From: Catajapyx aquilonaris
Lineage: Eukaryota
Length of the DNA stretch: 64,000 nt
Direction of reading: 5' to 3'
NCBI GenBank assembly: GCA_000934665.2
Contig: KZ538380.1
Coordinates: forward strand, 1 to 64,000
The position numbers were made by a program, and so were the translations under genes. The notes beneath the pieces were generated by a model. It had not been told where the DNA came from. It was given only the letters and a program-made list of their open reading frames with translations, and made no database searches. This document shows, one piece after another, positions 1,152 to 37,299 of the stretch; within the stretch, counting starts at the first letter, position 1; each line of letters opens with the position of its first letter.

Positions 1152-1173
1152 AGAGCGTAGGGTCTCACATGCC

Positions 1174-14336: not shown

Positions 14337-15970
14337 AATGCACAATCCGGCAAAATCGGATATTATTTTGTAAATAGGCGTTCATACAACTGACAAAAAT
14401 GCAGAGCAGCTTCACAGCAGTTTCATACGAAATTTGCGATACCGGTACCAATACAGACCGATAATAAGTTGTAACATGCGGATGCGGATGTTATGCCAGG
14501 ATGATTTCAAAATCGTAGCAACTAGCAAGGGCAGGTTGTATGAACGCATATTAAGGAAAACCTCCGATTTTGCATACAGGTAATCACAATACATAGCGAC
14601 ATAATCTGAGACGTTTCCTTAATTAGCTTTCAAACAACTGACTTTATTGTGACGATATGTCGGACTTTTTCTTGGCCCCATTTTTTGTGGGAATTACAGG
14701 TAAAGTGTTTCATATTCAAATATGCTATTATCGTTGTCATTCTTGAGTCATCCATGTATGCCATTTACCACGAAAATATGAAAAGTAAAAAAATAAATAA
14801 TAAAATCGGCCACATACGATATAGGTTGATACGACAGGATTCGTTAAGGTCCTACGGGCACAGACCAAGGGTGAAAAATGACAATGGTCCACGTGATGTA
14901 TTCCGAGAAAATGTCACAATAAGTTGTATACCGCCGTTACATACACATATTATGTCGGCATCTCTAGCTGACGCTTGCAACACGTCACTGAATTCACTCA
15001 TAAGGAAGCACATTGCAAGTGGCTTTAAGCTTCTTAATGATCTCCACTTCAAATTACGAAGGGAGTTTATTATCCATTTAATGTGGAGCTTGGCGTTCTA
15101 TCTTCCAACTGGAAGATTAAAAAACTACGATGTCATCAGAAAGTTTATTTATGGGCGTGTAGCACTGTTGACAGATTTTTCATGATTGATGGAATTAATA
15201 AAAAAGGGGGTTATTTGATGTGGCATTTTGCAACTAGCATCAGACTTACTGCATTGCTTGGATATTGCAAATAGCAAAATTTGATCAGATTAAAGTTGAA
15301 ATCAGTGATTACAGTATTCAGGGGGAAAACCTGCTATAATAACTTCTTTTTTTTTTTGTTATTGTAAAGCTGCGAAAAGTGTGTAATTTTGCCTGGGAAA
15401 TTTCAGAACACAACCTTTAAAGGATTTAAAGTTCGAAGCTTCACCTTGACATTTTCCATGATATACAGGCCCCACTCCAAACTTAGGGCCATAACGTGTA
15501 AAAATGATATTTCACTCTGGGAGAGGGCACTCCATCGCTGCGCTGGTTAAAAAACACAGCTGCATATTTCAAATCCCAGGAAATAATTATGTTACATGGA
15601 CTGGAATGAACTTGCATGTGACACTTTCGTGATTGCATCAATTTTTAAAAAGAACCTATTCAAGGCAACAAGAGTGTAGATAAGCGTTCTAGCATCACAG
15701 TACATTACACTTTGCGGACTTCCCAGTTGGAGAGTATCAATGTTGACCTTTTTTGGTTTTTTATTTGTTTATTGGAATCTAGTGCATATTCAGGTCCAAC
15801 ACTTTTATAAATAATCAATCAGGTTTTGTAACTTTTATAATATTAATTGGAAAACAAAAAATGGCAACTGCCTAACAATTTGCAATTTGAAAATACACAA
15901 CTCTTGCAAAAACTAACAACAGTTAAAAAAGGAGTGCTGAAGGAAACCCTCCTGCACCACATGTATGGGA

Positions 15971-16045
15971 TTACTCCCACAGATCGAGTAGGCTGTGGGT
16001 TCGCTTCCTCGTCCCAGTGGTTCCCTTCTTCACTTGTCTTGCTCT
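15971..16045 (-). CDS. Coiled-coil gene, exon 4 (last coding exon)
   Basis: TTTATTTTAG acceptor, phase 0: RARQVKKGTTGTRKRTHSLLDLWE*; AATAAA on the minus strand ~200 nt downstream. Confidence 0.55.
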   Translation of the reverse strand, partial: RARQVKKGTTGTRKRTHSLLDLWE

Positions 16046-16353
16046 CTAAAATAAAGTGAATGTAGAAACACAATTTCAGAAAGTGAAGGAGGAACTTTCC
16101 CAGTAGATAATCCTCTCTGGCATGCATGAAGGGGGAGCATGTACTGATCTAAAATCAGGTTTGTCTACAAGTCATGAGGTCCCCGAGCAACATCTGACTT
16201 CCCTCATTTCCCTCACCTCGTCCCTACCTCTTATCTACCTGTCCATATGCCAGCCAGAACCCAATTCAACCAGACTCTATAGTTTGCTAGCATTTGTTCA
16301 TACAACTTCTATGAGATTAGCAGGTAAGCAGTTCAGAATTCATCCTACTAATA

Positions 16354-17104
16354 CAGGGTGGGGCAAAAGTCATGGGCAGGTTTAAACGACGCAGCATGGC
16401 GTAAGTAACGAACGATTATATATATTTTAAATTACACTACACAGAGAAAGATATGCCATTTATGGATCAAGGTCCAAAAAAGTCACTTCTTGAAAACAAC
16501 ACCAGATAGATGTCCACCTTTGCGGGCAATGCATATTCCTCCAACGCCGGCTGAAACCCTTCATAACAACGCGCTCCAGCATGTCCAGGGGAATGTTTCT
16601 CACAGCGTGTCTTATCTGATCCTTAAGATCAGCCAATGACTGAGGACATGTGGCGAACACCAAACAAATTAAAAGTCAAGTGTTTCCTGGGAGGGTCATT
16701 TCCTTGGTCATTTCGAGATTTGGGGACATTCCTTGGCCGTCGCGGTCGCCGAATTTGACCACCCCCGACTTCTTATTGTGGGGGTACCTGAAGAGTTTGG
16801 TGTTCGCCACACGTTCTCAGGCATTGGCTGATCTTCAGGATCAGATAAGACACGCCATGAGAAACATTTCCCTGGACATGCTGGAGCGCGTTATGAAGGG
16901 TTTCGTCCGGCGTTTGGAGGAACATGTGTTGCCCGCAAAGGTAGACATCTATCCGGTGTTGTTTTCAAGAAGTGACTTTTTTGGACCTTGATCCATAAAT
17001 GGCATATCTTTCTCTGTGTAGTGTAATTTAAAAAATATATAATCGTTCGTTACTTACACCATGCTGCGTCGTTTAAACATGCCCATGACTTTTGCCCCAC
17101 CCTG
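16354..17104. mobile_element. Tc1/mariner-derived MITE built from two inverted 3' ends
   Basis: TA|CAGGGTGGGGCAAAAGTCATGGGC... ~305-bp inverted arms; each arm encodes transposase C-terminus; centre encodes FGDIPWPSRSPNLTTPDFLLWGYLKS. Confidence 0.9.
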
Positions 17105-17109
17105 TATGA

Positions 17110-17272
17110 GTGAGTGAGTGTGAGAGAGAGAGAGAGAGAGGGAGAGGGAGAGAGTGAGGGGGAGCCAGGCTGTTATCTGAACANTGGGGGAGAGGTGGGG
17201 GGAGTGGGAAAGACAGGGAGAGAGAGGGAGAGAGAGAGGGAGAGAGGGGGGGAGGGAGAGGGAGGGAGACAG
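17110..17272. repeat. GA/GGGA-rich microsatellite
   Basis: Directly visible (GA)n/(GGGAGA)n runs. Confidence 0.9.
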
Positions 17273-17403
17273 AGGTCATTATGTAACCCCAGTGTTAATG
17301 GCAATGTTCCTCCAGCCCTAACAGTGTGCAGAGATTGTTTTATGCTGTGCAAAAAACATAATCTTATGTCAGCTCTCATTTCCTGAGCTACAAAATTAAT
17401 GTA

Positions 17404-17774
17404 CCGTATTTACGCGCATATAAGACGCACCCCGGTTTTGAGGCAAAAAATCGTGGAAAATCGGTTGTTGACGTATAGGTGGCAAGGTCACACCGGAATT
17501 GTGCACGTGTGTGGACGGGGAGAGCATAACAATGGAAGTAAAGGAGAAACGCTGGTCGTACCGTGCCGTTTTCAAGAGGAAAGTGATCAACTGTGCTGAC
17601 AGGACATCAAACCGACAAGCTTAAATTTTTCAATAAACGATTTTCACGATTTCTCACGGGTTTCACCCGTTGTGCCCTGCCATATAAGACACACACGCGT
17701 ATAAGACGCACCCTACTTTTTGAGCTACAAAAAAATCGGAAAAAAAGGTGCGTCTTATATGCGAGTAAATACGG
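17404..17774. mobile_element. pogo/Tigger-like non-autonomous element
   Basis: TA|CCGTATTTACGCGCATATAAGACGCACC...GGTGCGTCTTATATGCGAGTAAATACGG|TA. Confidence 0.85.
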
Positions 17775-17823
17775 TAATAAAACTTGGCAAAATTTTAGTG
17801 GCTAGTCTGGGGCTTGACCACTC

Positions 17824-18389
17824 ACAACCATAGTAACTCTTCTTACCTTCCTGAATGTTGAAATTTTTTGGATTTTCTAATTCTGCTTGCCCTATAGTGT
17901 TGAGAAACATCACCTCCGCTGCTAATAGGGTGAAAATACAGCCAAATGCGATGTTCCGTAGCCACAACACCTGCATCCGATCGCAAGTCACCGGTCCTGG
18001 CTGCCTGGTCGCGATTGCTTTTCACCGCGTCTGTAGCTCTCTCCGGTGCCGCGAAGGAGAAGGGTCATCTCGCATGCTTTGAAGTTGAAGGCGATTATCA
18101 TAATGGAGAGCCAGGACTCCAAGGCTCTCCATTTCCCTTCTCCTTTGCGGCACAGGAGAGCGCTACAGACGTGGTGAAAGGCAACCGCGACCGGACAGCC
18201 GCGACTGGCAACTTGCGACCGGATGCAGGTGTTGTGGCTTTGGAATATCACCTTTTGGCTGTATTTTCACCCTGCTAACGTGGAAATTAGCAGCGGAGGT
18301 GATGTTTTCTCAACACTATAGGCCAAGCAGAATTAGGAAATCCAAAAATTTTCAAAATTCAGGAGGGTAAGAAGAGTTACTTTGGTTGT
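17824..18389. mobile_element. Long palindromic MITE, copy 1
   Basis: ACAACCATAGTAACTCTTCTTACC...GGTAAGAAGAGTTACTTTGGTTGT; long inverted arms; second copy at 44235-44823. Confidence 0.85.
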
Positions 18390-18604
18390 CAGATATTGTT
18401 GGTATGTGTGAGCATGTGATAAAGAAGAGTACCGAAGTTATTAAATTTCCAATATATTAGTCTTAAAACATTACTGCACCATCATCAGCAACTCAATATC
18501 AACTGGATCCTGCAAAACTACTGTGCCACATGTATATTGACAGCCTTATATTTAACTCTAATGGCAATAAATCAGACTCTTTCTGTCTCATTTTAAAAGG
18601 TTAC

Positions 18605-18916
18605 CTTGGCTAGAACATTCTTCTGGGAACTGGGGCTTCCCAAAGGTGACCTTCTTTCAGCTGACAGTAAAGAGACTGCAGGTTGAATTGGCTGCAGATT
18701 AGTTCTTGCCACTTTGGCAGCCTTGCCAGCATTGTCCTCTGCAGTATTGAGGCCCCTGACATCAGGCACAGACTTGTTTGTGGCAGCAGAATTAGATGAA
18801 CTTGCTTCCACAAGTTGTTTCATAGAATTAGTTAAGCCTTCAATTTTAGCATTGTTTTCAGCCAACTTCTCTTTCAGGTCCTTGACCAAGTTCTCCTTTT
18901 TCCCCAACTCCACCCT
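18605..18916 (-). CDS. Coiled-coil gene, exon 3
   Basis: TTGATTGCAG acceptor, AAG|GTAACC donor, 312 nt, phase 0/0; RVELGKKENLVKDLKEKLAENNAKIEGLTNSMKQLVE heptads then S/P-rich tail. Confidence 0.75.
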
Positions 18917-19028
18917 CTGCAATCAAATTACAAACAATTAATAATGCACAGGGACTGACAAAATATTTCACAACAATAGCAGATGTAAATAAAAAATTCC
19001 ATCAAAGATGTACAGAATGATACAAATT

Positions 19029-19811
19029 GAAGACGTTTCTTGCAAAAGGGCCCACGTCCCAAAATTTCGAAAAAAAAAAAACCGTTTTATTGCAGATTCC
19101 TACTTTTGGAGTTGGGCCTCACAGCCCTGGTGAAGATGAAGAGCCAAAGTCAATCAGAAGTGCCTTAAAATTGAGGCGCTCAGAGGAAGAATAGCATATC
19201 CCAACCGGAGTTCATTTTGAGAAAGGTGGCTTTTTGTGTTTTGCTTTACCATGCAGCTCAAGCTATGGACTGATTTTACAAGTGGAATATGTGAGCTTTG
19301 GCATGTCCCAATTCATTTGGTATTTCAGCACATGAGAGGTAGATGGAAGGAGAGTAGGTCGGTTGGGATATGCTGTTCTTCCTCTGAGCACCTCAATTGA
19401 ATGTGATGATTTGGGGTCCATTGCCTACTACTGGACTTGGGCCTTTTGGCAACTGACTGGACGTAAATCATAATCTGATTGATGTTATAATAATTAACAT
19501 AGGATGGAAATAACACTGGTCACACCTTTCTTTGTAGTAGTACTTTATGAATATGATGTGTTCAGATGGACAAGCGTGACTTTATACCACTGAAATTTGC
19601 AACATGAAATGTTGGTGCAGGCAGTCACTTGCCAAAGGGCCCAAGTCCACTGGTTTTCACCTTCAATATACTCTGACCTATTGCTTTCTAGTAGATGATG
19701 TTTCTGCCACTAGGAGTGTATAATGGTGCCTTATTAGCATCATAAACCACGAAACTCTGAATGGAGCAATTTCACCTCGTGGACTTGGGCCCTTTGGCAA
19801 GTGACGTCTTC
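19029..19811. mobile_element. Sola1-like non-autonomous DNA transposon
   Basis: TIR GAAGACGT..CTTGC.AAAGGGCCCA / TGGGCCCTTTGGCAAGTGACGTCTTC, AATT TSD, internal GGACTTGGGCC repeats. Confidence 0.75.
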
Positions 19812-20378
19812 AATTGTGCGAGGAAATATTATACATATGCATACACCTGCAAAAAATTATATCAATCACTTGCTTGGCAATATATGTCATATCAATTCAA
19901 TCTCAGCCTCAGAAACAAGTTAAATTAAATTAGTCAGACTCACAAAGTCACAATCAAGTGCTTCCAACAAAACTGTAGTAACACTCATCAGTTTCATTCT
20001 GATGGTATCATTCCACAGCCATATGACAATGCTGTGCGTGGCTTATTGATGTAGATAGGTAAGTTAGCCATTACAACCCACAGTCTCCTCTGATTGAGAC
20101 TCAAAATCAGTGCATTCCATGCCCACGACGTGGAAGGCAGAACCACACCTTCACAACTGTACTTGTATGCAGTATGTTTGCTATGAAATCATGCAAGCAG
20201 AGTCAAAGTTGGGTGTAGTTGTAGCTTTGATGAGTTTTGTGGAAATGCCACTATAGGGTCTTGCCATCTGGTCAGGCTCAGCATTCCCTGATTCACCACT
20301 GTAAATTTTGTAAATGAACGTAATTTTTCGTATTTAAAAAACATTTAGTTCCAATGTCTCGGACACACAGTACAACAT

Positions 20379-20760
20379 CAAGGTTGCCACAGGCTTCCCA
20401 TTTTTAATTTCCCTGACTTTTCCCTGACTCTTCCCTGACCTTTTATCAAAATTCCCTGACCTTTCGACATACCCATAGCAAACTCAAAAAACCCATTCCA
20501 AAAAAGAACACAGCAAGGGGTGTAAATCAGACGCATTTTTGGCTTTTTTTTGTTTAATGAAACGCATGCCGGCCCGCAATGATAATCACATGTACAAACT
20601 GAGACGGTCCTATCCGCGACCGACGTTAGGTCAGCGATTTTAAACACATTTTCCCTGACCCATTTTCAAATTCCCTGACTTTTCACTGATTTCCCTGACC
20701 ATTTTTTTATTCCCTGACTTTTCAAGAATTTCAAGGATTTCAAGGTCTGTGGCAACCCTG
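20379..20760. mobile_element. hAT-like non-autonomous element
   Basis: CAAGGTTGCCACAG...CTGTGGCAACCCTG termini; many subterminal TTCCCTGAC repeats; TSD not clean. Confidence 0.7.
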
Positions 20761-21283
20761 AACATAACATATTGTGGGCATACAAGTGAAATCCAGAAGT
20801 CCAATTTTAGAAGTGTTGAGTTATTTATACCAATAAGTAGCATTTTTTACTAGCCCTCGTACATCCTTGACTTTTTATCCCAATCTCCTTTTGCACATGT
20901 CAATAATATCTTGCAAAAAAGCAACTATACCAAAAGGAATTATTGTAAAAATTAACAGTTTTTTATTAGGGGATGGCGCTAAGTTTTGGCCTTACAAGGC
21001 GCCAAATTACCGAAGTGTCCTCCTGGTATTGCACACTCATTGGGGTTGCATTACTCTGCACATTTTGAGTATATTACTTTGCTATTGTTAGATTATTCAA
21101 GTGGGTTAACAGAATTGTCTAAATTTTCCATAAGCCCAATAAATACAGCGACTTCTAAGGCAACTGGTGCCCTAATTTTCCTAGTGGGGGTCACTTTTTG
21201 TGCAATTGGAATGGGGACATTTCATTGTGCAACTCATGCTAATTAAATTTAAAATCCTAGATTGCGGCATATTGCTTAATATC

Positions 21284-21535
21284 ACCCCGGGGGTCGCCGA
21301 CCCTGACAGTGGTTTTCTGTGGTGTCCCACGGTCCCACCAGGACAATTCCGGGGTCGTGTCCGTAATTATAGGCCACAGCCGCTTCCTTCCGTCCCTATC
21401 CCATCCCCAATAAGGAAAAAGCAAAAATGCAAGAAAGAGTTCAAGACAGAAAAAAATATGGTGGTATCCCCCCCCCCCCTAAGAGAGCCCATGGCTCTAG
21501 CACGGGGTACAAATTATTATTATATTATTATTATT
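21284..21535 (+). mobile_element. 5'-truncated SINE
   Basis: 15-bp TSD ATATTGCTTAATATC, (ATT)n tail, core GGTTTTCTGTGGT...AGGCCACAGCCGCTTCCTTCC shared with 30501-30921. Confidence 0.85.
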
Positions 21536-21773
21536 ATATTGCTTAATATCTAGCAAGATAACAGGTTTTTGAAATGAAACATCAGCCTCAATTTACACAT
21601 GCAGTACAACATTTATGCCTAATTTGCTTAATATCTATTTATACAGAGAGTGGCAGTGGGTGCCAGCTCCTCTCTGAAGTGTCCACCTGATTACAATTGC
21701 TAGTGATTAAAAATATTCAGGCTAACAGCACTGCAACCAATCAGCAATAAAATGTCAATCAGTTATGACTAAC

Positions 21774-22019
21774 CCATGCATTTTCCTTCTCTGCACAAGC
21801 AGCCCAGATCTTCTCTGCACAAGCAGCCCAGATCTTCTCTGCACAAGCAGCCCAGATCTTCTCTACATCCTCCCTCAACCTTTTTTGTCCTTCCACCATT
21901 GCATCATAGTCGCTTTTTGCCTTGATCAAACCTTCCTCCACAGACTTGGAAACTTCCATGCACTTGTTGAGGATCTTCCTCTGATTCTCTTCCTGTTCCA
22001 TCATAGCTTTCTTCCAACC
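21774..22019 (-). CDS. Coiled-coil gene, exon 2
   Basis: CTTTTCTGCAG acceptor, TGG|GTTAGT donor, 246 nt, phase 0/0; GWKKAMMEQEENQRKILNKC...(EKIWAACA)x3 EKENAW. Confidence 0.75.
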
Positions 22020-22368
22020 CTGCAGAAAAGTAAGTGCAATGAAAAAATGCTACTCAATGAGCAGGAAAATCGACAAATGGCAACAGTTGCAGAATCTGAC
22101 AAGACATATCAATGGTGTTACTGATTACTCAATTTCTACAGTGTCCTTCAATTAAAGTGAAGCTGAGAAGCTTGATAAATTTGAGGAGTTCAATACAGTT
22201 GACTCTAGATGTAAGAGATTTCTAGGGACAGCAGAAATCAAGTATCCTATAACCAAGGTTTCCTCTGTCCAAATCAGCCCCACGGAACTCCCACCCTTTT
22301 TATACGGTGACAGTAGGGGTACTTACAGAGTGTAGGAGTTGCGGGAGGCTGTTCCAAGTGCACAAGAC

Positions 22369-22699
22369 CAGCCCGGGGACATTTCTATCCCAGGCCAATA
22401 GAAAAAGCTGTGCCGTTATCTCTTCCCGCAGAGGCGCTAATATATCTGCAATGGAATCCCTCGGTGGGTCATAAGTTCAGCGCCCCTTCCTGCACAACTA
22501 TCCACTAACCCCTAGCTCTAGGTCACGCTCTAGGTGTTAGTGCATAGTTGTGCCGTAAGGGGCACTGAACTTATGGCCCAGCGAGGGATTCCATTGCAGA
22601 TACATCAGCGCCTCTGCGGGATGGAATAACGGCACAGGGGTTGGAATAACGGCACGCAAGATAGCGGCAAGTGTCCCGACCTATTGTTTTAAGACCGTG
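22369..22699. mobile_element. Palindromic MITE with CA..TG ends (P- or hAT-type)
   Basis: 8-bp TSD CACAAGAC at 22361-22368 and 22700-22707; ~230-bp internal hairpin at 22408-22637. Confidence 0.7.
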
Positions 22700-23105
22700 C
22701 ACAAGACATAATTACATGGAAGCATGGCACTATAACTCTATAAGTTGGCTATAACAAAGGGTTAGTTATATCTCTTACTCAGAGTTGACTGTGTATGCAA
22801 GCAAACAACTAAGTGAACTCTTTGAAACTAGTCACCTACATAGTTATGCAAATACAGGAAGTACATGGTTTAATAACAACCATAATTATAGCAATTCGTC
22901 CTTATAGTCCGGGCCCTATGCGTTTTAACCTTGCACTTTGTGATAAGAAGGTGACACTCGGCACATATGTTCCTTAGGCCTATAGGAGCAATTCCAGAAT
23001 TTCAGGCAATTTCGTACCGGCGCCCGGTTAGCTAATGGAACGAAATTTTTTGCATTGTCAATCGAAAATGGATGAGGATTTTCAGGCCCACAATTTCGCA
23101 CCCAC

Positions 23106-23231
23106 CTGATCTATCCTGGACCTCTCGAGTGTCAGACTCACAGGGCCCCCCGACAGAGTCTGGATTTCACAGGAGTTGCCCGGATTATGACCGATTCGGG
23201 GCATCTCGCCTTGAACCCCACGGTTCTCCAT
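23106..23231 (-). CDS. Coiled-coil gene, alternative first exon 1b
   Basis: ATGG start, 42 codons MENRGVQGEMPRIGHNPGNSCEIQTLSGGPVSLTLERSRIDQ, CAG|GTGGGT phase-0 donor; homologous to exon 1a. Confidence 0.6.
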
Positions 23232-23256
23232 CAGAAACTGATCAGAAACTACTAAG

Positions 23257-23395
23257 AAGATGGCCGCCCCCAATCGAACAGAACACAACCCGGTTGGATG
23301 AACTGCCAATCAGGCGACCGCTTCCTGAACAGATCGCCGATCAAGGTGTCGCCGATGACGTCACTAGGTACGCGTGAAAACCCGCTCCTCATTGG
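23257..23395 (-). promoter_or_regulatory. Promoter module 1b (YY1-like, CCAAT x2, CRE)
   Basis: AAGATGGCCGC, CAACCCGGTTGG, CCAATCAG, TGACGTCA and ATTGG; CpG-rich. Confidence 0.55.
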
Positions 23396-24123
23396 TCCAA
23401 ATACATCTGCGTCACACAACGATATTTGGCAACGTGATATCGATATTACTAACAAAAATATCGATATGGAATGTGCAGACTGCAGCAAATATTATTAACG
23501 CGCGTAGCGCGTATATAATATTTGACCGCAGAGGCTCTGCCTTTTTCAGAGGCCAGGATCATTGCCCTTCCCAGAAGTGTTCCATTCCATGACAATAAAT
23601 ATATCAACATTGCAGAAGTGGAATATGGAATAGGTGGTACAGTACAACAGAGTAATGCGGTGTTATTATTTGGAATGAATGGAATATTTTCGTGACATTT
23701 TTATCACGCACAAACTGAGCAGAGAGAGCTCCACTATTGCATCCTCTGAAAATTTTGGGCCTGGTCAATGGGGTAACAACTGCCCAAAAAAGTGTACACC
23801 AGTTCCTGGAACCAGCTGGTTCCACCCGGTTCAAGGCCGGTTCCACAGGGACCCTGTACTCTGTACACCGGTTTCACGAAGTTGTTACCCTCTTGTGCCT
23901 GGTATGGTTTTGTTCGAGTTTTATTTTTTGTCCGACTGGCTGTTCGATTCGGAGTGTCCAGTTACCTGCGTATCATAAACTGATGCAAAACTTGCACACA
24001 TTTTATCCCACAGCCAATTCATAATTTCCGGTCATTCCGCCGCTCGACCGCTTTGAACATGGAATATAGCCCATTTTTCGAGCAGAAATAATTGATTCGA
24101 AACACCCGTACATTCCAGCTCAC

Positions 24124-24228
24124 CTGGGTTATCTCCCTCATGTCGCTGTCGAGTGTAGGGGACGCGGGGAATTGCGGCAGAGGCTGCATGGGGCTGGATG
24201 CTGACGGATTCGAACGGATTCCCTCCAT
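24124..24228 (-). CDS. Coiled-coil gene, first exon 1a
   Basis: AAGATGG start, 35 codons MEGIRSNPSASSPMQPLPQFPASPTLDSDMREITQ, CAG|GTGAGC phase-0 donor. Confidence 0.7.
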
Positions 24229-24320
24229 CTTTGACCAGCAGCAGCACACAGAAACGATGCTTCCCCTTCAAGCGCTCGCCTGCATCTGACCAGATCTGCC
24301 GGCAGAAAAAAAACTAGTCA

Positions 24321-24450
24321 CAAAATGGCGGCTCAAAATAGAACGCAACCCGGTTGGCTCAACAGCAGCCAATCAGATATTAGCCTGTTGTAGAATATTC
24401 CATGAGGCAATGGAACGCAGCTTCTGATTGGCCGAATGTCGTGACGTCAC
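24321..24450 (-). promoter_or_regulatory. Promoter module 1a (YY1, CCAAT x2, CRE)
   Basis: CAAAATGGCGGC, CAACCCGGTTGG, GCCAATCAG, CTGATTGGC and GTGACGTCAC; no TATA box seen; CpG-rich. Confidence 0.65.
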
Positions 24451-24924
24451 ATATTCCTCCAGAATTACCGATAAATCTACCGTACAAAATGTACTGTACC
24501 GGTACTGAATATTTTCGCGGATCGTAATTAACAGAGTTGGTGTAGAGGAATTAAATCATCAAATAATTGCAAATAAAATATCAGGTCTAGTCTCCGCGAT
24601 GCCACATTTCATGCAATACCGGTAATAGATTTTCAAGAAAGCCCAGCTGTAATCGTTGTCTTTGTCGGAACTAGAATGTTACACAGAACAAGCTGTAACG
24701 ATGCAGAAATTCTGCATGTTCCATTCTTAATTACGCACATTTCATAACAGCTGAATTAGCACGAACAAACAAATTGCTGGTCTGGAATATCCTCAACATT
24801 AATTGCGATAGTGAACATAAATATACAGTTGGTCCATTACATGAAGCTGATGTCGGAATCCTTTTGCAATAATAACACAAAAAATACCAATGACTTCTTC
24901 GTAACACTCCCGTCAGTATTTGTA

Positions 24925-25092
24925 CAGTGTTGGACATAAATCGAGCCATATTGCTACCGACATTTTCCGAAGCGGCAGAAGATGGAATCGAAGATAAGGA
25001 TAGGCCTACTGCAATCCGGGCGAGCAAGATTCCTTCTTCTGCCGCTTCGGAAAATGTTGCTGGCAGTATGCCTCGATTTATGTCCAACACTG
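24925..25092. mobile_element. Palindromic MITE (CAGTG..CACTG, TA TSD)
   Basis: CAGTGTTGGACATAAATCGAG...CTCGATTTATGTCCAACACTG; half-copy at ~53447-53528. Confidence 0.8.
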
Positions 25093-27380
25093 TAACAACC
25101 TCTGTACACCACTGTACATCTCAATCATCACGTTGCATTACCATTGTTCCCCCNCCCCCCCCCCCCAATATTCACTTACTAGTGGCACCCACTAACTCTA
25201 CACCAAATATTCTTACACACTGACAAAGCAACTGGTGTCTTGAAATTACAACTGAGAATTTATAATTGAGTTCACAGTCACATAGAAGGTAAACATAAGC
25301 AACTAGTCAGCGGCGGATTTCCCATTAGGCACAATAGGCACTGGCCTAGGGGTGGCCGCGAGTTGCAATAAATCATATTTATCAAATACAATAATAAGAA
25401 ATGATGGCGAGGTCACAAAGAAAAGCAAATCGTTGACAGCTTGATTTGCCACTACATGCAGAAAAGGTTTGCAGAGGTTTGGTATGCAACTGCTTCAGAG
25501 GCCCAAGAATCACAACACTGGATGGGGAAGATGCAAATAAGAAAGAGGGAAGCAGTCATTACAAGGATGTGTAAAAACCCACATCCATGCAATTAATGCT
25601 CCCCACTTTATTATCAGATTCTCTGAAGTACACCATAGGTGGTCTATTTTTACAGTACAATAATTGTGCTTGTCATTGATGAGATCAGAGTGCAAGTAGG
25701 TAAGGCAGTATTCTTGTAGAACACCAAGTCTGCTTTGTTAACTAAGATCTTTTTCGAGAGCCGGTACAAGTACAAAAAGCTGCTGGATAGTGTTTTCTAG
25801 AAAAGTGCCAGTCAGAATTGCACACCAGGGATACTTGTACAGAGCTGAAATGTCTGCATCAGAAATTCGCTAATTTGCAAGTTTCACATACTTGCAGATG
25901 ACACTATAGGCACCTGTAATATCACTATGCAACACGATATTTGTCCATGGAAATTCATTGCTATTTCCATGTTCCTTGGGTCACTCGTAACTCATAATGA
26001 CCATTCATTTTGTGTTCGATTTCTTTTTCACCTCGGGGCAGTCGAACAACCAACATTCTCAAATATAGGGGGTTTTCCCAATCAAGTGGAGTGGGCCGAA
26101 ATGTTGCTAGAACATCTCGGATTTTGCTGAAAATAATCACAGCTGTACACACATGCCATAACACTGCACATCAAGTTTCTGCCAAATTTCGAAATACCGC
26201 GGGGAGGGAAAAACTGTTACATTTTGGAAATGGGGCCTTTTTTGAATAATTTTTCCATTGGTGGAAGTGGACAAAACCCAATCAACATATACATCAAATG
26301 AAAGAAAAACATGAGGAAAATGAGCCTATGAAATTTGTCTTCCTCCTAAATGTAACCAGCAAAACATGTGTGGCATTCCATCAGTCCCATGTTCAAGAAG
26401 TTGGGTCCTTGAAAATTAATGGTATATCTGCAAAACATATCTATTATTTTCTCGCAAGCAATGCATGACCCAGGTTTGAAACTGAACATATTAAATCTTG
26501 TATAGGTCACAACTCCTGTCACCAAATATGGTTGTTGTTCCCCAAATACGTACATCACTAATTGAAGGGTTCTCTGCAATAAGAAGGTAGGTGAAAATTA
26601 TTCACTTTGAGAAAAACGCACTTGAACATTTGATTTTGTGATTTCATGCTGGTATATGTGAATCATTTGAAGATACCATCAAGTCCCATCAAATACATGT
26701 GAAAGATGTTACCTAGCACACTTTGTTTTTAAGAAATAAATATACTTAAAAATTTCATTTGCATTCTTCTTGCAGAGATCCCTATGGGAGCGCATCCGGG
26801 CGCCTTATTTATTTGATATCTTGGAGCCTAATATGAATACAACAATGAAACTTACATAACTGAAAGGTTATGAATAGAGGATTACTACAAAAATGTTCTG
26901 AAATTTCAAGTCTATTAGGCTCGTGTCAAGGGTCATGAACTTTGACCTGCCAACATGACACGTAATTTCAATCGGATATTTTCTTGGCTGTTATCACCGG
27001 ATTACGCGTACCGTTTAGAATTGAAAGCCAGCTTTTTAATGTATGTGGGATGCACATTTACTGAAATAATCGGGTTATTGTAAGCCACCTACTATGCCCA
27101 GATTCAGGTCCAAGGCTTGTGTCATTAGCCTTTTTACCACATACAGGCGCCACGTAGGCCTTAGAGATCTTTGCAGTACGCAGTTAATAATATTTTCCAG
27201 TGTTTTTAAAACGAAAAACCTTATTGCAGAGAACCCTTCAATTGTTGGGGTCTAAATACTTGGACATGTGACTTAGCATCTGACCGATGGAATGCCACAC
27301 AAGTTTTTCTGGGCACATTTTCTAGAGAAACAAATTCCATACACGCATTTTCCTCGTGATTCTCTTTCAGTTAATGTATG

Positions 27381-28035
27381 CAGGGTGTTCTCGAGCTAAC
27401 TTTACAAACTTCTAGGGGTAATAGAGGGGACCAAGACAAACATATTTCACATAGGAACCCGTGTCCGGAAACGCCATCTAGAGGGGGTTCATAAATGAGG
27501 AACGGGTGTGCTCAGACGTGTCAGGTGGACGGCGTCAGCGAGGGGACCGTTTAGTTGCTAAGTGGAGTGCGGATAGTACACAACTTCGCAATTCGCAATA
27601 ACCTGGCAACAACAGAGCCACCTAAAGGCCATTTCACAAAAAAATGGCGTGCGGCAAACGGCGCGCGTTGCGGCATATTTCTTATTTATATTTATTATTG
27701 CCAATAATTAATAACAATTGGCGGGGCAGGCGTTTGCCGCTTATCGCTGCCGCAAAATCTTTTTGTGTTTTGGCTAGGTAGCGCGCAGATAATAAACAAC
27801 TCTGTTGTTGCCAAGTTATGGCGAATTGCTGAGTTGTGTACAATCACCGCGCCACCAAGCAACTAAACAGTCCGCTCGCTAATGCCGCCCGCCTGGAGCG
27901 TCTGAGCACACCGTTCCTCACCTATGAACCCCCTCTAGATGGCGTTTCCGGACATGGGTTCCAATGTGAAATATGTTTGTCTTGGTCCCTTCTATTACCC
28001 CTAGAAGTTTGTAAAGTTAGCTCGGAAACACCCTG
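27381..28035. mobile_element. Tc1/mariner-type MITE
   Basis: CAGGGTGTT..CGAGCTAACTTTACAAACTTCTAGGGG...CACCCTG|TA, ~240-bp inverted arms. Confidence 0.85.
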
Positions 28036-28277
28036 TATGTTTCTTGAGTTTTGACCACTTCCACTAACTGAAAAACATTATCCAAAAAACTGAAAAAAGG
28101 CCCAATTTCCAAAATTTCGCGATTTTCTTCCTCCCCACAGTATTTTGCAAATTGGCTGAAACTTGATATGCAGTGTTATGGCATAGGTGTGTACAGCTGT
28201 GATTTATTTCAGAAAATTCTGAGATGGTCTAGCAACATTTAGGCCCACTTGATTGGGAAAAACACCTACATTTGAGG

Positions 28278-28530
28278 GGGGCAGCACGGTGGCAGAGTGG
28301 TTAGCACCACAGCCTTCCACCTCTAAGGTCCCAGATCGCGCAGAGGATACTTATGTGGATCGAGTTCCAATGGGTTCTCTCCGTGTTCGTGTGGATTTTC
28401 TTGGGGTTCTCCCGTTTCTTCCCGCAATCAAAATCCATCACAGCGCAGGCAATGATTAAAGACGGTCAATTAAAAGATGATCCCCTAAAAAGCCCAAGGA
28501 GGCTTATCACAGGGTATCCATTATTATTAT
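28278..28530 (+). mobile_element. tRNA-derived SINE with V-domain-like core
   Basis: A box GTGGCAGAGTGGTTAG, (ATT)n tail, TSD ATTTGAGG; same family as 33655-33978. Confidence 0.85.
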
Positions 28531-28619
28531 ATTTGAGGATTTAGGTTTTTTGACTGCCCCACCGTCAAAAACAAATCGAAGACAAAATGATTGGTCATTT
28601 TGAGTTCCAGCATTAAAAA

Positions 28620-29260
28620 TAATCAAAAATCTAATAAGCTGGCTTGTTAAACTAGAAAATATATACAGTCGACCTCGCTAATTAAAAGAAGTTTGAAATA
28701 TGCACTATCGAACACACAGTCCCACCCTATAAAAAGTTGGACATGGCTGCTAAATCGAGAATTTAATAAAATGGGAATGTCTATCCATGGCTGGTTACAA
28801 AATATAGAGAATAATTATATCCATCCAAAGGATGCTAATCACATATATTGATGCAACGATTCAACAGGACTATACAGACCTAAACAATTCAAAGAGATAT
28901 GCCAATTATGTATTACTTAACAATTCTCCATATCTAGAAAATTATTTAACCTACAATTTACCGCTACATTCAATTAGAATTGTGGCTAACCTCCGGAATG
29001 AATCCGCCTGGTTCTATATAAACGGATACAAAATACAGCTAGAATTAGAGAACTACTGTTCATTATGCAATATCAAAGAAGAATTTACTATACACCATAT
29101 GTTATACATTTGCCCTTTGTTTCTGGCCCGAGGAGAACATTACTCATATCATGGCCTTCGGTCCCACCTGATAGATTAAACTGGATTCTGGATGATATAC
29201 CGGCTCAGGAAATTGATAAATTATATGTTTTTTAATAAAGCAAAACTATTGTTGGAAAAT
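28620..29260 (+). mobile_element. Non-LTR retrotransposon 3' ORF2 fragment
   Basis: ORF 28832-29179 aligns with 29546-30052 (YL...PL...R...N.RN, CSLCN..E....H....C). Confidence 0.75.
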
Positions 29261-29269
29261 GCTGATATA

Positions 29270-31740
29270 TTAATAATAATATAATATAATAATAATATAA
29301 CAATATATTTATTTCCTTGTTACAATTGATGTAAATGGAAAGCCTCCTGCCAGGAGATTTACATAACCAAAAAGAAAAAAAAAACATTTGCATAATGTGT
29401 TTACATACTAATATCGCAAAGTTGTAGTTTTTTACAGCCATTGAAAAAAATCTGCACAGCGCAAAAACCTTTATGGGCAGCATATCGATAAATAATGTAT
29501 ACAATTTTTCTGGCGGTACTCCTTGAAATTCATTTACACAACCCCTTACTTAACTCTGAAAAATAAACATTCAAATAGGAGGACATGAAAAAACGTCATT
29601 TCTGTCATCATATTGCATAACGAGCAAATTTCCTCTGACTGGAATTTTAAGCAATATCCTTGGATATATAGAACCTTTGACTTGTTTCTTATATTGATCA
29701 GCATACGAACCAGTTTCAGTGGCATCGACCTTTGTAAATATGTTTCATGTAAGTAACCATTTGACACATCAATGTAATGTTTGTAAGCTCTCGTGTTATA
29801 CAAATCCTTCATATCCCTTTCGATTGTATTATCCACAAAGGTGGTCAGCATTTTGTTCACATCCATAGTATCATAGTTTTGCTGCCAGTAAGCCCATGTA
29901 ACACCCGCATCTTTCAATAAAATTTCTACCGATGCGAACCAGTCCCAACCATTTCTTTTCCTAGTACTTGTTTGGTACTGAAAGGCTTGGCCAATTTGAC
30001 TGCTTTGGGGCTCCATAGTTATTTTCCTCAAAAACAAGAACAACCTTTGCATAATTTGGAGCGAGATTGGTCTACAACCAGTTTCCAGTCTTTAAAAAAA
30101 ACCAGCACAAGAGCGAGGCAAGGTAAAAAATTTTTTCAAAAAAAACGTCTGGACTCGTTCTAATTCATGTGTGCGTTATACAATACAGCTGGTACCACCT
30201 GTGCGTCAAACAGCCTCATTGCTGTGTTTATATTCCTCAACTTTAACTTAATCAGGTTTGGCCACATCATATTTCTTAATTTCTTGCCCTCGTTAACAAA
30301 ATAATTTAGCGCTGTATTGGGGTTTCCAGTTGTCGACAACAGAATTTATACTCCTTCACTATTTCCAACTTTTCTCCATCACAAAAAAAACTTGGCAATT
30401 TTCTGCCCCTCCGAAATACCATCACCTTGGTTTTAGCCAAGTTTAAGTGTAATTCATTTTCCTTTAAATAGGCTGTAAAAACATTTATTGCTCTCTGCAA
30501 CCGAAGCAGTAGTGGTGTAGTGGATATGGTGTCCTACTGCTAATCGGGAGGTCCTGGGTTCGAGTCCCAGAGGCCGGAGGTTCTGACCTTGGTTTTCTGT
30601 GGTTTTCCAAGGTCACCCCAGGGAAATCCCGGGATCATACCGTTAAATAGGCCACAGCCGCTTCCTTCCTTTCCCTGCTATGGAGGAGGCACGGTGTTCG
30701 GTGGGGAGCTTCCGGCCGCGCCTAGGGGGGGTGTCTAAGCTTGGCCCCCTGAGGGACTGCACACGGCCCCCACCACAGGACAATGCACTGCACCTTTGTT
30801 CCTCCCTCCCTATCCCTTCCCTGTCCCTGCACCGGTGAGATTGAAAAGTATAGAAAATGGAGGAGATCTCCTCCCCCTGCATTGACCAATTGGACTCAAG
30901 GGGGAACCAAAATAAATAAAATATTGCTCTCGGCAAATATAATGGTTTATCAGTCAAAATAACAATGTCATCCGCGAATTGTAGAAAATTTATATCCCTT
31001 TTGCCTGGGCCAAAATTTACCCCCGGTATTCCATTATCAGTAAACAGGTTTTCCATATCTGCCATATACAAATTAAATAAAACGGGACTTAGTGGTTCCC
31101 CCTGCAATACTCCCTTACCTATCGGGATGACTGTGTCATTTCCCTTTGCTATTATTACTGCATTTTCATACATATTAATTACAGTTTCCAAGAACTTATT
31201 TTTCCCTATTCCGTACCTCCCTAGATTTTCCGATAGTAGTTTGTGATTGACAGAATCAAAAGCCTGTTTTAGGTCCACGAATACTGCATAAAGTTTCCCT
31301 GATTTTTTTCCCACATATTTTTGTACTAGTGAATTTAATACAAAAATCAAATCTGCACACGATCTTCCTTTCCTAAACCCAGCTTGCGATTCAGGGAACC
31401 AATCCATCTTCTCAGCCCATAGAGACAATCCGTTTACTAATATCGATGTGAGCAATTTTAACAGGTGGTTTAGTAAAGCTATGGGTCTATAATTTTGCGG
31501 TTCCTCGGGGTTTCCCGCTTTAAATATCGGTATCATACGTATTTGTACCCAATTTCTCGGTAAAACCCCCGTTGCCAAGATCTGGTTATACAATTTCAAC
31601 AATAAAGCCTGCAATTTGGGGGACTCAAGTTTCATTATTTCATTTGGGATTGAATCCGGACCCACCGCCTTCTTTAATCGTAAACGTCTAATACTCCCCT
31701 GGAGCTCAGCCAATCTTATATCACCGTCCAATTCTTCTAT
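29270..31740 (-). mobile_element. Non-LTR retrotransposon (RT ORF2), 5'-truncated and interrupted
   Basis: KAVGPDSI, NYRPIALL, QAGFRKGRS, FVDLKQAFDSV, GVLQGEPLSPVLF, QFADD, NLAKTKVMVF, C-terminal CSLCN..H..C; AATAAA plus ATT-rich tail near 29270-29312. Confidence 0.92.
30501..30921 (+). mobile_element. tRNA-derived SINE inserted into the RT ORF
   Basis: A box AGTGGTGTAGTGG, B box GGTTCGAGTCC, A-rich tail; TSD TATTGCTCTC(T/G)GCAA duplicates the L(Q/P)RAI codons. Confidence 0.9.
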
Positions 31741-31741
31741 A

Positions 31742-32166
31742 CAGGGTGTATCTGAACTCAGTGCCCCGACGTATATGCCTGCCTTCCTAGCCACCACAGG
31801 ATCAACTTATGTAGAGGAGTCATTATGTCTGGGCAGCCTCATTACTGAGATACACTCTTTAGCATTTTTTGCCTAATCGCTCCTTCTGACTTTTAAATAG
31901 AATTTTCTGGTGTAACTAGCCAAAGAGGCCTTACCACCTGTGGGCAACAAACCAACAAAGTCCCGCCCCCAGACCTTCCAGAGCCTTCTGACTGGGGGAG
32001 GGTTCGATGGGTGGCCTAACCGACAGGATATTTTGTACTACATGTTTGCGGCCAATTATCTCAGTAATGCGGCGGCCAGACATAATGACTCCTATACTTA
32101 AATCGCTCCTCTGGTGGCTAGGAAGGCAGTCATATACGTCGGGGCACTGAGTTCAGATACACCCTG
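31742..32166. mobile_element. Tc1/mariner-type MITE
   Basis: TA|CAGGGTGTATCTGAACTCAGTGCCCCGACG...CGTCGGGGCACTGAGTTCAGATACACCCTG|TA. Confidence 0.9.
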
Positions 32167-32289
32167 TATAAGTTGGGATGATGTCCAACATCCCCAATGC
32201 TTGGTTATCCCTCACCGCTATTTGCGAAGAACTTAAGTAAGACAACCAAGTGTCTTCCTTTGCTTTCGAATATGGTGTACTGCTTTTAA

Positions 32290-32519
32290 ATTTTTTTACA
32301 CGGATGCCAGGGGGAAATGGCCACTCTGGGGATCTTTAATGTGCACTCGCGCAATGTCACTTAAGCACACCGGACCGACGCCTTCACTTCCCCTCCGAAG
32401 GAAGGCGCACTCTCACTTTTCTACCACCCAGAGAAAAGTCACCGACCTCGGCCGGGTTCGAACCCACAACTTAGGGACCAGAGGCGAGCACACTAACCGC
32501 TAGTCCACCGGCACTGGCC
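32290..32519 (-). mobile_element. tRNA-derived SINE with Nin/Deu-like central domain
   Basis: A box GTGGACTAGCGGTTAG, B box GGTTCGAACCC, then CCTTCGGAGGGGAAGTGAAGGCGTCGGTCC...GCACATTAAAGATCCC. Confidence 0.7.
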
Positions 32520-33448
32520 ACCCAATTATGGCTGAACTCTACCAGCACCTCGAAATAAAAAGCTGTATATTTTATCACCACAAGAGTGAAATAACCATAT
32601 GTAAGGTAAGGGCAAATCCACGTGAAGTGCATCACCTTTTTCACGAAAAAATTTGCCCATCCATGAGTGTGAGATATTTCAGTCCAGGTCAAGTTATAAC
32701 CTTTCCAATAAGGATTTGGTCCGATGATACGCAGTTCCCTATCTACAGGCGCTAATTGCACTTGGATCACAGTTATAGGTGCCCCCCTATTACATTTACA
32801 CCACAACGTAAATGCATGATGTGACACATGTTTCATGTGTGAAATTGTCTCCTCTTTTCTACAAATATGTTGATTTTCATATAGCTGTGCAAATATATGC
32901 CAAAATCGACATTTTTTGAAAAAAATGTAATTTTCGAATTGAAGGCCCAAGTCAAATGTCATCACGTTGATATCAAAATACGTCCCATAGTGTCCTCTGT
33001 CAGCGATGTAAAGGAATTATGGGGAACGAAATGGTTGCGGAGCTATGGGCACTGACATGGAGCGCTGCGGGAGTGCCACGGCCATATAGTGAAAGCTAGC
33101 TGCGCATGTGGAGCTTCAGGGGCGTCTTCATGTCTCAGGTACTCTTGTTCTTTGAGTTTCATTATGTCCTACGAGAACTTAAAACTTATCGTAAAAATAT
33201 AGTTTCACAAGAACCGAGCACGCTTGTGTGTGGCTGCTCCCACTCGATGTTGTTTGGAAGCGCACATGTTATTGTTGGTTTCAAAGCATGAGAGATCTTC
33301 CTGGGTTTTTCAAACTACCCAAAATTCCCCAACCCCTACGCCCTACCAAAGCACCCTTCAGAACCCTTTTTCGGATTAAGCTGGGTGAGTAGGATCTTAT
33401 TTTGGAGGAGGCGGAGGGTGGGTTGCGGAGGAACCTTGAACCCCATGA

Positions 33449-33617
33449 AGGCCCATACACACAGGCGGTCGACGGTTTTGGTCTTTGGTTGCGGTGACGC
33501 CGCGGACCAATCAACAAGCGCAACACAAGTGTTGAGCTTGTTTACATGAGTCATGATTGGTCCGCGGCATCAACGCGACCAAAGACCAAAATGTCGACCG
33601 CCTGTGTGTATGGGCCT
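33449..33617. mobile_element. Harbinger-like hairpin MITE nested in the Sola element
   Basis: AGGCCCATACACACAGGCGGTCGAC...GTCGACCGCCTGTGTGTATGGGCCT with TGA TSD. Confidence 0.8.
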
Positions 33618-33650
33618 TGAATGCTGGTCATGCTTTCAAGCCAAATATAG

Positions 33651-33654
<4 letters not shown>

Positions 33655-33725
<71 letters not shown>

Positions 33726-33978
33726 GATAGCCCGTGATAGGCCCCTTGGGCCTCTTAGGGGATCATCTTTTGAATAACCGACTTTAATCATTTGCCTGCA
33801 ATGTGATGGATTTTGATAGTGGGAGGAAACGGGAGAACCCCGAGAAAACCCACGCGAACACGGAGAGAACCCATCGAAACTCTATCCTCATAAGTATCCT
33901 CCGTCCAACCCGGGGATCAAACTCGGGACCTTAGAGGTGGAAGGCTGTGGCGCTAACCACTCTGCCACCGTGTCGCCC
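33655..33978 (-). mobile_element. tRNA-derived SINE (V-domain-like) with long microsatellite tail, nested in the Sola element
   Basis: 16-bp TSD AGCCAAATATAGTATA; A/B boxes; (TAA)n at 33655-33723. Confidence 0.9.
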
Positions 33979-36470: not shown

Positions 36471-37299
36471 AATGAATATTACATATTAATGTTCAAGAAA
36501 GTTTCTATTATTTTTCGCAAGTGACAAGTGTTAAATATGCTGGATTAGATAGAATAAATTTCATGTAGCCTACTCTATATTTATTTTTTCATTCCTCTAG
36601 TCGTTCCTAGTCACAGTCCAAATTAATGTTCACTATATAGACATGTATGGAATTCCTTCTGGCTCCATACGGGCAGCTAGCTTACACTATATGGGCGTGG
36701 CACTCCCGCAGCGCTCCATGTCAGTGCCCATAGCTCCGTAACCATTTCGTTCTCCATAATTCCGTTTGCATCCCTGAGAGGACACTATGGGGGGTATTTT
36801 TATATCAATGTGATGACATTTGACTTGGGCCTTCAATTCGAAAATTACATTTTTTTCAAAAAATGTCGATTTTTGGCATATATTTGCACAGCTATTTGAA
36901 ATTCAACATTTTTGTCGAAAAGAGGAGACAATTTCACACATGAAACATGTGTCACATCATGCATTTACGTTGTCATGTAAATGTAATAGGGGGGCACCTA
37001 TAACTGTGATCCAAGTGCAATTAGCGCCGGTAGATAGGCAACCATGCATGATGGTACCAAATCCTTATGGGAAAGGTCATAACTTGACCTGGACTTAAAC
37101 ATATGTCACACTCATCGATGGGCAAATTTTTTCGTGAAAAAGGTGATGCACTTCACGTGGAATTGCCCGTAAATAAGTGAGAGAATTTAATTAAATCTAA
37201 ATATTCAGGGAAGCTCCCCCATGTAAAGGTGTTAAGCCTACCGGGGTAAATAAACTAAACTAAAACTCTATCAGCAGGTTACCAAACGATCAAGAAAAT

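What the first reader, a model, noticed from the sequence alone, without database searches (positions are those of the whole stretch)
23106..24450. Duplicated promoter plus first exon gives two homologous alternative N-termini
Seen: two modules ~1 kb apart share the ordered motifs AA(G/A)ATGGC, CAACCCGGTTGG and CCAATCAG, and each also has a TGACGTCA and a second ATTGG. Each is followed on the minus strand by an ATGG-initiated exon ending CAG|GTG in phase 0. The peptides align: NPSASSPMQPLPQFPASPTLD..EITQ versus NPGNSCEIQTLSGGPVSLTLE..RIDQ. Motifs, frame and donors are kept while spacers diverged, suggesting both are under selection. The conserved near-palindrome CAACCCGGTTG may be an unassigned TF site.
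Basis: partly seen in the sequence, partly recalled or inferred. Interest (0 to 1): 0.7.

Follow-up and report, generated by a model that had tools for sequence, protein, structure and literature searches.

The report
Twin promoters shared with Ubc9 copies
An unnamed animal gene carries two old side-by-side copies of what is likely its promoter and first coding exon, and a relative of that DNA also sits, again often doubled, in front of extra copies of the SUMO enzyme gene Ubc9; this is likely a known kind of gene tinkering, and its use in RNA is untested.

Summary
Observation confirmed. The two modules are an old tandem duplicate (core 56% identical, far above shuffles). Each has an ATG-to-donor exon in phase with a predicted four-exon gene of about 245 aa that has no homolog found. 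A second genomic copy (C277) keeps both modules and every reading frame. The CCAAT boxes and the YY1-type site are conserved (17 of 17 columns invariant). The peptides show no amino-acid constraint (dN/dS about 1). The TGACGTCA sites are not homologous. The B start kept in frame in both copies is 23204, not the ATGG at 23231. The palindrome is broken in C277's B and is not enriched genome-wide (290 vs 263 control). New: ten more copies of the cassette lie on six contigs of a family of divergent Ubc9 duplicates that lack the parental Ubc9 promoter, and four of these contigs have it doubled. It is not a dispersed transposon family. Best reading: a hydra-like young gene with redundant or dosage-type twin promoters whose cassette was also captured by Ubc9 copies. 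No RNA could be examined. The scan noted a similar promoter capture on other DNA of this genome (e1-7595992); no look-alike of this cassette was in its index.

The parts
24318..24480 (-). Module A core promoter: TGACGTCA 24442-24449, CCAAT box 24427-24431, inverted CCAAT box 24369-24373, CAACCnGGTTG 24346-24356, YY1-type GCCATTTT 24322-24329 (factor names from recalled consensus)
   Evidence: CpG o/e 0.85
24268..24285 (-). Five-codon upstream ORF in the leader of exon 1a, identical in the C277 copy
24124..24228 (-). Exon 1a coding part, 35 codons, donor CAG|GTGAGC, phase 0
   Evidence: C277 copy 115280-115378, 33 codons, 61% aa identity
23960..24750 (-). Stretch spanning the homology with the 5' end of the Ubc9-like duplicates (upstream flank, core and start of the intron align; the exon itself does not score above shuffles)
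   Evidence: score 297 vs 30 +/- 4; alignments
23253..23430 (-). Module B core promoter: CCAAT box 23391-23395, TGACGTCA 23356-23363 (B-specific), inverted CCAAT box 23306-23310, CAACCnGGTTG 23286-23296, YY1-type GCCATCTT 23257-23264
   Evidence: CpG o/e 1.02
23106..23231 (-). Exon 1b coding part; ATG at 23231 (in frame here only) and ATG at 23204 (in frame in both gene copies, homologous to the 1a start); donor CAG|GTGGGT, phase 0
   Evidence: C277 copy 115710-115793, 28 codons, 71% aa identity
21774..22019 (-). Shared exon 2 (predicted), 82 codons, with its own in-frame ATG near the start kept in both copies and a 24-nt triplication; modelled as one long helix
18605..18916 (-). Exon 3 (predicted), 104 codons, charged then Ser/Ala/Pro-rich
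15971..16045 (-). Exon 4 (predicted), 24 codons and stop, basic; AATAAA about 200 nt downstream
15926..40021 (.). Block collinear with G000:C277:109415-132938 (second copy of the gene, introns included)
   Evidence: about 91% identity in aligned non-coding columns

Best explanation
The two modules are an old tandem duplicate, likely two working TATA-less promoters that each start a predicted transcript of one fast-evolving orphan gene, and a relative of the upstream module was likely captured by duplicates of the SUMO enzyme gene Ubc9. Shown: the duplication, the conserved CCAAT and YY1-type sites, open in-phase first exons in two gene copies, the homology with the 5' ends of the Ubc9-like genes, and the breakpoint about 40 nt before the Ubc9 start exon. 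Inferred: unequal crossing-over made A and B before the whole 24-kb block duplicated; NF-Y and a YY1-type factor drive both; each first exon splices to exon 2. The two N-termini (about 33-35 polar, Pro/Ser-rich residues, no hydrophobic stretch) are likely tolerated, interchangeable leaders rather than specialised domains, so the gain from two promoters would be in amount, timing or back-up of expression. The cassette doubled again, independently and recently, at the Ubc9 copies.
For: A vs B far above shuffles. The core is the best-kept part (z 9.8 vs -0.6 upstream, 3.9 exon, 3.6 intron). CCAAT x2 and GCCATnTT 17 of 17 columns invariant vs 37 of 103 other columns in 5 representative copies. C277 keeps A, B, all donors and acceptors and all frames: length differences of 6, 15, 48, 102 and 15 nt, no stops. 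Neutral simulation keeps all five frames in 0.005-0.16% of runs. A groups with A' and B with B' (83-84% vs 56-60%). CpG o/e 0.85-1.18 at the modules against 0-0.38 in exons 2-3, as at canonical Ubc9 (0.91 vs 0.38). Ten cassette copies at Ubc9-type loci. Paralog introns 2-3 are 81-88% identical to canonical Ubc9, while intron 1 beyond the last 40 nt and the canonical promoter are at shuffle level.
Against: No transcript was seen, so exons, starts and splicing are predictions. dN/dS is about 1 in every exon (pooled 1.18 for 1a+1b, 1.02 for exons 2-4) and exon identity (87%) is no higher than intron identity (91%). Survival of just the two first-exon frames has a chance probability of 0.04-0.17. 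In the far part of the block 19 of 51 indels are multiples of three, so the low intron figure (9 of 64) used in the simulation may overstate the effect. C277 module B has a broken palindrome and an out-of-frame upstream ATG. The spacer between A and B is also CpG-rich (0.84), so CpG does not separate two promoters. A-to-Ubc9-cassette flanks (72-78%) are more diverged than the Ubc9 introns (81-88%), so the donor may have been a lost third locus, not module A. The tree of cassettes has no outgroup.
Confidence: 0.55

Rival explanations
1. Only module A is a real start. B is a decaying duplicate kept partly by chance, or it serves as an extra NF-Y/YY1 element inside intron 1.
For: C277 B has lost the palindrome and gained an out-of-frame upstream ATG. 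Frame survival of 1b alone has a chance probability of 0.18-0.42. The 1b start has a weaker context than 1a. Only the A type is found at the Ubc9 loci.
Against: B keeps both CCAAT boxes, the YY1-type site, an ATG, an open frame and a GT donor in both gene copies despite about 44% divergence from A. B and B' cores are as alike (84%) as A and A' (83%).
Confidence: 0.17
2. One reading: the two N-termini are themselves selected and give two functionally different isoforms, perhaps under positive selection.
For: All four first exons are open and in phase. Exon 1b has 10 non-synonymous against 1 synonymous change between gene copies.
Against: That excess is not significant (p 0.28) and pooled dN/dS is 1.18. 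Neither peptide has a hydrophobic stretch or Gly2 (sequence). Exon 2 has its own conserved in-frame ATG.
Confidence: 0.12
3. The cassette is the relic of a mobile element's promoter (an LTR or a LINE 5' end), inserted or exapted at both gene families.
For: Related copies lie at unrelated genes on 8 contigs. YY1 sites are typical of some retroelement promoters (recalled). The region is rich in small repeats.
Against: Only 14 copies were found and all belong to two gene families. Four searches (DNA of A, DNA of B, two patterns reaching the core) and a profile over held loci found no other homologue. A's upstream flank hits only C277. The homology runs on into intron sequence past the donor.
Confidence: 0.08
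4. The whole gene is a young pseudogene or non-coding unit and the open frames are incidental.
For: dN/dS about 1. No protein relative in five searches.
Against: All frames and splice sites are kept in both copies. Exon 2 is modelled as a continuous helix. The gene body is CpG-depleted like housekeeping genes here.
Confidence: 0.08

Closest known systems
Drosophila hydra (Chen et al. 2007, PMC1904467; abstract, 12 passages and section 15 read)
   Same: Orphan gene of about 300 aa and four exons; tandem duplicates of exon 1 with its upstream region and a short coding part; whole locus also duplicated; high Ka/Ks with frames kept despite indels; unequal crossing-over proposed.
   Different: hydra has nine young, similar first exons of nine codons, mostly flanked by DINE-1, use of at least four shown by 5' RACE, and testis expression shown. 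Here there are two old copies (56% core identity) of 33-35 codons, no shared flanking element was seen, expression is unknown, dN/dS is not below 1, and the cassette is shared with another gene family.
Chimeric genes that gain a foreign 5' end by duplication
   Same: A duplicated promoter and 5' UTR placed before another coding sequence, as inferred for the Ubc9 copies.
   Different: Those are young polymorphic tandem events with RNA evidence. Here the join is old, donor and recipient lie on different contigs, and the product then amplified.
Regulatory-element families made by segmental duplication (Weaver and Lowe 2025, 10.64898/2025.12.03.692127; abstract and outline only)
   Same: A family of similar cis-elements spread by duplication rather than transposition and attached to new genes.
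   Different: Human, with open-chromatin and CRISPRi support; here an invertebrate-type genome and sequence evidence only.
UBC9/UBE2I SUMO-conjugating enzyme (for the genes that share the cassette)
   Same: The 20 best PDB hits of the paralog's long exon are UBC9/UBE2I, E 4e-33 to 4e-30, against 7e-20 for the best named ubiquitin E2. Same intron positions as the genome's canonical UBC9, and the HPNVYPSG-x-VC motif with its Cys is kept.
   Different: 65-67% aa identity to the canonical copy, multi-copy, different promoter and first exon; one copy (C6549) has no ATG in the start exon.

Membership tests
Tandem-duplicated alternative first exons (hydra type) | Homologous promoter-plus-exon units in tandem upstream of a shared exon | tested here: met
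Tandem-duplicated alternative first exons (hydra type) | Each unit has a donor in phase with the shared exon | tested here: met
   all four units, phase 0
Tandem-duplicated alternative first exons (hydra type) | More than one unit is used as a transcription start | not testable with these tools
   no sequencing run could be obtained for the stretch
Tandem-duplicated alternative first exons (hydra type) | Coding sequence under constraint | tested here: inconclusive
   frames kept but dN/dS about 1
Dispersed transposon family | Many copies at unrelated sites | tested here: not met
   14 copies on 8 contigs, two gene families; counts are lower bounds
Dispersed transposon family | Defined ends, terminal repeats or target-site duplications | not tested
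   homology fades out on both sides; no formal search for ends was made
Chimeric gene by promoter capture (Ubc9 copies) | Coding part derives from one parent, 5' end from another, with a breakpoint | tested here: met
Chimeric gene by promoter capture (Ubc9 copies) | Direction (which locus gave the promoter) known | tested here: inconclusive
   midpoint-rooted tree only; cassette divergence is deeper than the Ubc9 duplication
Chimeric gene by promoter capture (Ubc9 copies) | Chimeric transcript exists | not testable with these tools
   no RNA examined
UBC9/UBE2I | E2 fold sequence closest to UBC9, catalytic Cys motif kept | tested here: met
   PF00179 over cut-off; PDB ranking; motif
UBC9/UBE2I | SUMO-conjugating activity | not testable with these tools
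   needs a biochemical assay

The most novel reading that the evidence does not exclude
One portable, duplication-prone promoter cassette, with its own palindromic factor site, has been handed between an orphan coiled-coil gene and an amplifying family of divergent Ubc9 genes, wiring them into a co-expressed, probably germline, lineage-specific SUMO circuit in which promoter copy number tunes the dose.
Probability: 0.15. Interest if true: 0.65.

Novelty: new member of a known kind. Interest (0 to 1): 0.4.

Why it matters
Duplicated first exons on a young gene and promoter capture by duplicates are both documented in Drosophila. What this locus adds is a natural experiment: one cassette in three old lineages (A, B, Ubc9 type) and 14 copies, which footprints the sites that matter (two opposed CCAAT boxes and a YY1-type site) and shows tandem doubling twice independently. 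It also points to an amplified family of Ubc9 duplicates, a gene usually single-copy (recalled), in a genome where other notes report divergent SUMO and PIAS copies. If shared expression were shown, it would be a clear case of co-regulation built by promoter copying rather than by transposons.

Tried and rejected
Protein relatives: none for exon 2 among longer proteins (0 of 84 candidates) or exon 3 (0 of 809); near and shorter length classes were not searched. The exon-3 profile against 1.84 billion representatives gave 1 hit, a 743-aa protein matched through nine repeat stretches, rejected as a coiled-coil match. ESM Atlas gave one 0.78 hit, a lead at most. Metagenome contigs: 0 of 598 pattern matches confirmed. 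Pfam: exon 2 hits GCK below the cut-off, exon 3 nothing. Only single exons were used as queries, so a weak relative of the whole spliced protein could be missed. A genome-wide profile search for distant cassette copies was not available. Pattern hits outside the family (4 of 16, 4 of 15) and 12 upstream-repeat loci scored at chance with the profile (best E 0.63). A plus-strand gene starting at the AAGATGGC motif was rejected: the frames stop within about 12-22 codons and differ between modules (read). The P-element transposase at 7340-9590 was rejected as part of the gene: it is broken and has no match in the C277 stretches. An apparent small deletion of the ATG in the Ubc9-type first exon was dropped because that exon does not align above shuffles (z -0.2). 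Canonical Ubc9 promoter as source of the cassette: no similarity. Literature: five spellings of the palindrome gave 51 papers; the 20 listed titles do not concern a factor site and none was opened. Two searches for Ubc9 duplicates listed 1 and 11 papers, none on this by title or abstract start. A search on YY1/CCAAT/DRE core promoters listed nothing used. PMC1463047 was seen as abstract and outline only and not used. No supplements were read.

Full report
Observation. Module A (24100-24480) and module B (23080-23440) align with score 69 against 24.0 +/- 3.6, maximum 40, in 500 shuffles. On the minus strand each is followed by an open exon ending CAG|GTG in phase 0 with the acceptor at 22019. 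The two TGACGTCA are not homologous: A's precedes the first CCAAT box, B's lies in an insertion between the boxes.

The gene. Reading on from 22019 gives predicted exons 22019-21774, 18916-18605 and 16045-15971, all in phase 0, for a protein of about 245 residues. Exon 2 is modelled as one continuous helix (mean pLDDT 93, two-sequence alignment), which suggests a coiled coil (inference); the rest is low-complexity with a basic tail. No relative was found, with single exons as queries, and Pfam gives only a sub-threshold hit. The taxon was not tested; earlier notes call the genome arthropod-like (unchecked).

A second copy. Exons 2 and 3 each match one other place in the genome, C277. Window 15926-40021 is collinear with C277:109415-132938, introns included, and no collinearity was seen in C277 75001-109400 or 133000-145000. 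C277 carries both modules, about 480 bp apart instead of 1060. A pairs with A' (83%) and B with B' (84%), while A-type versus B-type is 56-60%, so the tandem duplication predates the block duplication. All C277 exons are open, with GT donors and AG acceptors, and differ in length by 6, 15, 48, 102 and 15 nt. In C277 the first ATG of B is out of frame; the second, matching window 23204 and aligned with A's start, is in frame.

Selection on the coding part. dN/dS between the copies is 0.76 (1a), 3.6 (1b), 0.93, 1.01 and 0.67 (exons 2-4), none different from 1; A versus B gives 1.29. Exon identity (701 of 802 columns) is no higher than intron and flank identity (3152 of 3456). Frames are nevertheless kept. 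With the intron substitution and indel rates, all five frames survived in 0.005% of 20,000 runs, and in 0.16% at a quarter of the indel rate. The two first exons alone survived in 4-17%. The simulation uses the intron indel spectrum (9 of 64 multiples of three); the far part of the block has 19 of 51, so the figures may be too strong. The fair reading is a protein-coding gene whose sequence drifts or evolves fast, with no sign that the two N-terminal peptides are individually selected.

Selection on the promoter. Between A and B the core aligns best (z 9.8; upstream flank -0.6, exon 3.9, intron start 3.6). In five representative copies (A, B, A', B', one Ubc9-type) the two CCAAT boxes and GCCATnTT are invariant at 17 of 17 columns against 37 of 103 elsewhere; the CRE at 4 of 8; the palindrome at 8 of 10. 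Over all 14 copies the second CCAAT box is in 14, the palindrome in 12, TATCGATA in 13, the YY1-type site in 10 and a perfect TGACGTCA in 2. The copies were anchored on a pattern holding the first CCAAT box, so that box is partly ascertained, although the profile search found the same 14. The names NF-Y, YY1, CRE and DRE are recalled consensus labels. Genome-wide the palindrome is not enriched (290 against 263), and CCAAT-plus-palindrome hits outside the family number 4, against 8 for the control pattern. CpG o/e is 0.85-1.18 at the four modules and 0-0.38 in exons 2-3, like canonical Ubc9 (0.91 and 0.38). This fits an unmethylated promoter on a body-methylated, transcribed gene (interpretation from general knowledge), but the spacer between A and B is CpG-rich too (0.84).

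The cassette is shared with Ubc9 duplicates. Module A also matches six places on five further contigs at 71-73%; patterns and a profile extend this to ten copies on six contigs. Downstream on C2056, C4763 and C1281 lies an intron-containing E2 gene whose best PDB hits are UBC9. C1903 and C6892 end inside the same first intron. C6549 holds a fourth coding copy without a cassette in the 8 kb held and without an ATG in its start exon. C6488 holds a cassette whose intron breaks off. The canonical UBC9 is on C421 with a different GC-rich promoter that shows no similarity to any module. The copies match it at 81-88% in introns 2-3 and 80-85% in the last 40 nt of intron 1, and at shuffle level further up: a breakpoint just before the start exon. 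The cassette lies about 2.5 kb upstream in C1281 and C4763, across a CpG-poor intron, and its first exon has no ATG in the copies read. Homology with A spans window 24750-23960 (score 297 against 30 +/- 4); flank, core and intron start align but the exon does not. The coding copies keep the catalytic-Cys motif and show dN/dS 0.26-0.28 against the canonical gene (partly the canonical branch) and 0.40-0.89 among themselves. On four of the six contigs the cassette is itself doubled, about 2-6 kb apart, at 86-97% core identity. These short contigs are 95-99% alike and some may be alleles, so the number of independent loci is uncertain.

Direction and age. The Ubc9-type core is closer to A (71-74%) than to B (62-65%), one interrupted copy aside, and midpoint rooting puts B outside, which favours the orphan gene's lineage as the older home. 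There is no outgroup, and the A-to-Ubc9-type flanks (72-78%) are more diverged than the Ubc9 introns (81-88%), so the donor may have been a lost sister locus. The rest of the Ubc9-type intron 1 matches only that family, apart from one 36-nt hit, and A's upstream flank matches only C277.

Mechanism. Most likely (0.55) both modules are working TATA-less promoters made by unequal crossing-over, each splicing to exon 2, with interchangeable leaders; the benefit would be dose, timing or back-up. Rivals are a decaying B (0.17), selected distinct N-termini (0.12), a transposon relic (0.08) and a non-coding or pseudogene unit (0.08). Transcription, splicing and factor binding are all inferred.

Comparison. 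The closest case is Drosophila hydra, an orphan four-exon gene with tandem duplicated coding first exons, a duplicated locus and fast coding evolution (PMC1904467; abstract, passages and section 15). Capture of a foreign 5' end by duplication is described for Drosophila yakuba (PMC5460883; passages) and regulatory-element families from segmental duplication for humans (10.64898/2025.12.03.692127; abstract). This locus works like hydra; membership lacks the test that both starts are used. It is a new member of a known kind, made more interesting by the Ubc9 link. Interest 0.4.

Noticed in passing
G000:C2056, C4763, C1281, C6549 (loci L047, L049, L050, L051); canonical gene G000:C421:53453-54571 (L045, L096, L097): At least four intron-containing, divergent Ubc9 duplicates (65-67% aa identity to the canonical copy), catalytic Cys kept; C6549 lacks the ATG. 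Worth its own study with the divergent SUMO and PIAS copies noted by others in this genome.
   Followed up: partly
G000:C2056:7400-10200: The cassette copy nearest the Ubc9-like gene is split by an insertion of about 2.7 kb between core and first exon, while the farther copy is intact: a possible case of a spare promoter taking over.
   Followed up: partly
window 7340-9590 (-): Broken P-element-type transposase (PF12017, PF21787, PF21789 over cut-off), in more than one frame.
   Followed up: partly
window 1096-2157 (+): Intronless, open, divergent serine/threonine phosphatase of PP1 type (PF00149, PF16891); looks like a retrocopy.
   Followed up: no
window 39100-39600 (-) and G000:C277 near 109950: A further promoter-like stretch with a forward CAAGATGGCG motif and a GTAAGT donor, conserved in the duplicated block, followed by RNase H-like remains at 37264-38534 (motif recalled); it may be another first exon or the 5' end of an old LINE.
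   Followed up: no
window 21779-21867: A 24-nt unit is triplicated in exon 2 of the window copy only, lengthening the helix by 16 residues in frame.
   Followed up: yes
window 30643-31806 (-), 29546-30091 (-): Reverse-transcriptase-like ORF fragments of a non-LTR element (recognised by eye).
   Followed up: no
   Followed up: no
window 10682-10837, 12850-12984, 16347-17111, 17820-18393, 22408-22637, 24923-25094, 27378-28038, 44232-44826: Many short elements with terminal inverted repeats (MITE-like), one just upstream of module A.
   Followed up: no
G000:C421:48450-50950: A mitochondrial acyl-carrier-protein-like gene (recognised by eye) lies directly upstream of canonical Ubc9 on the same strand.
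   Followed up: no
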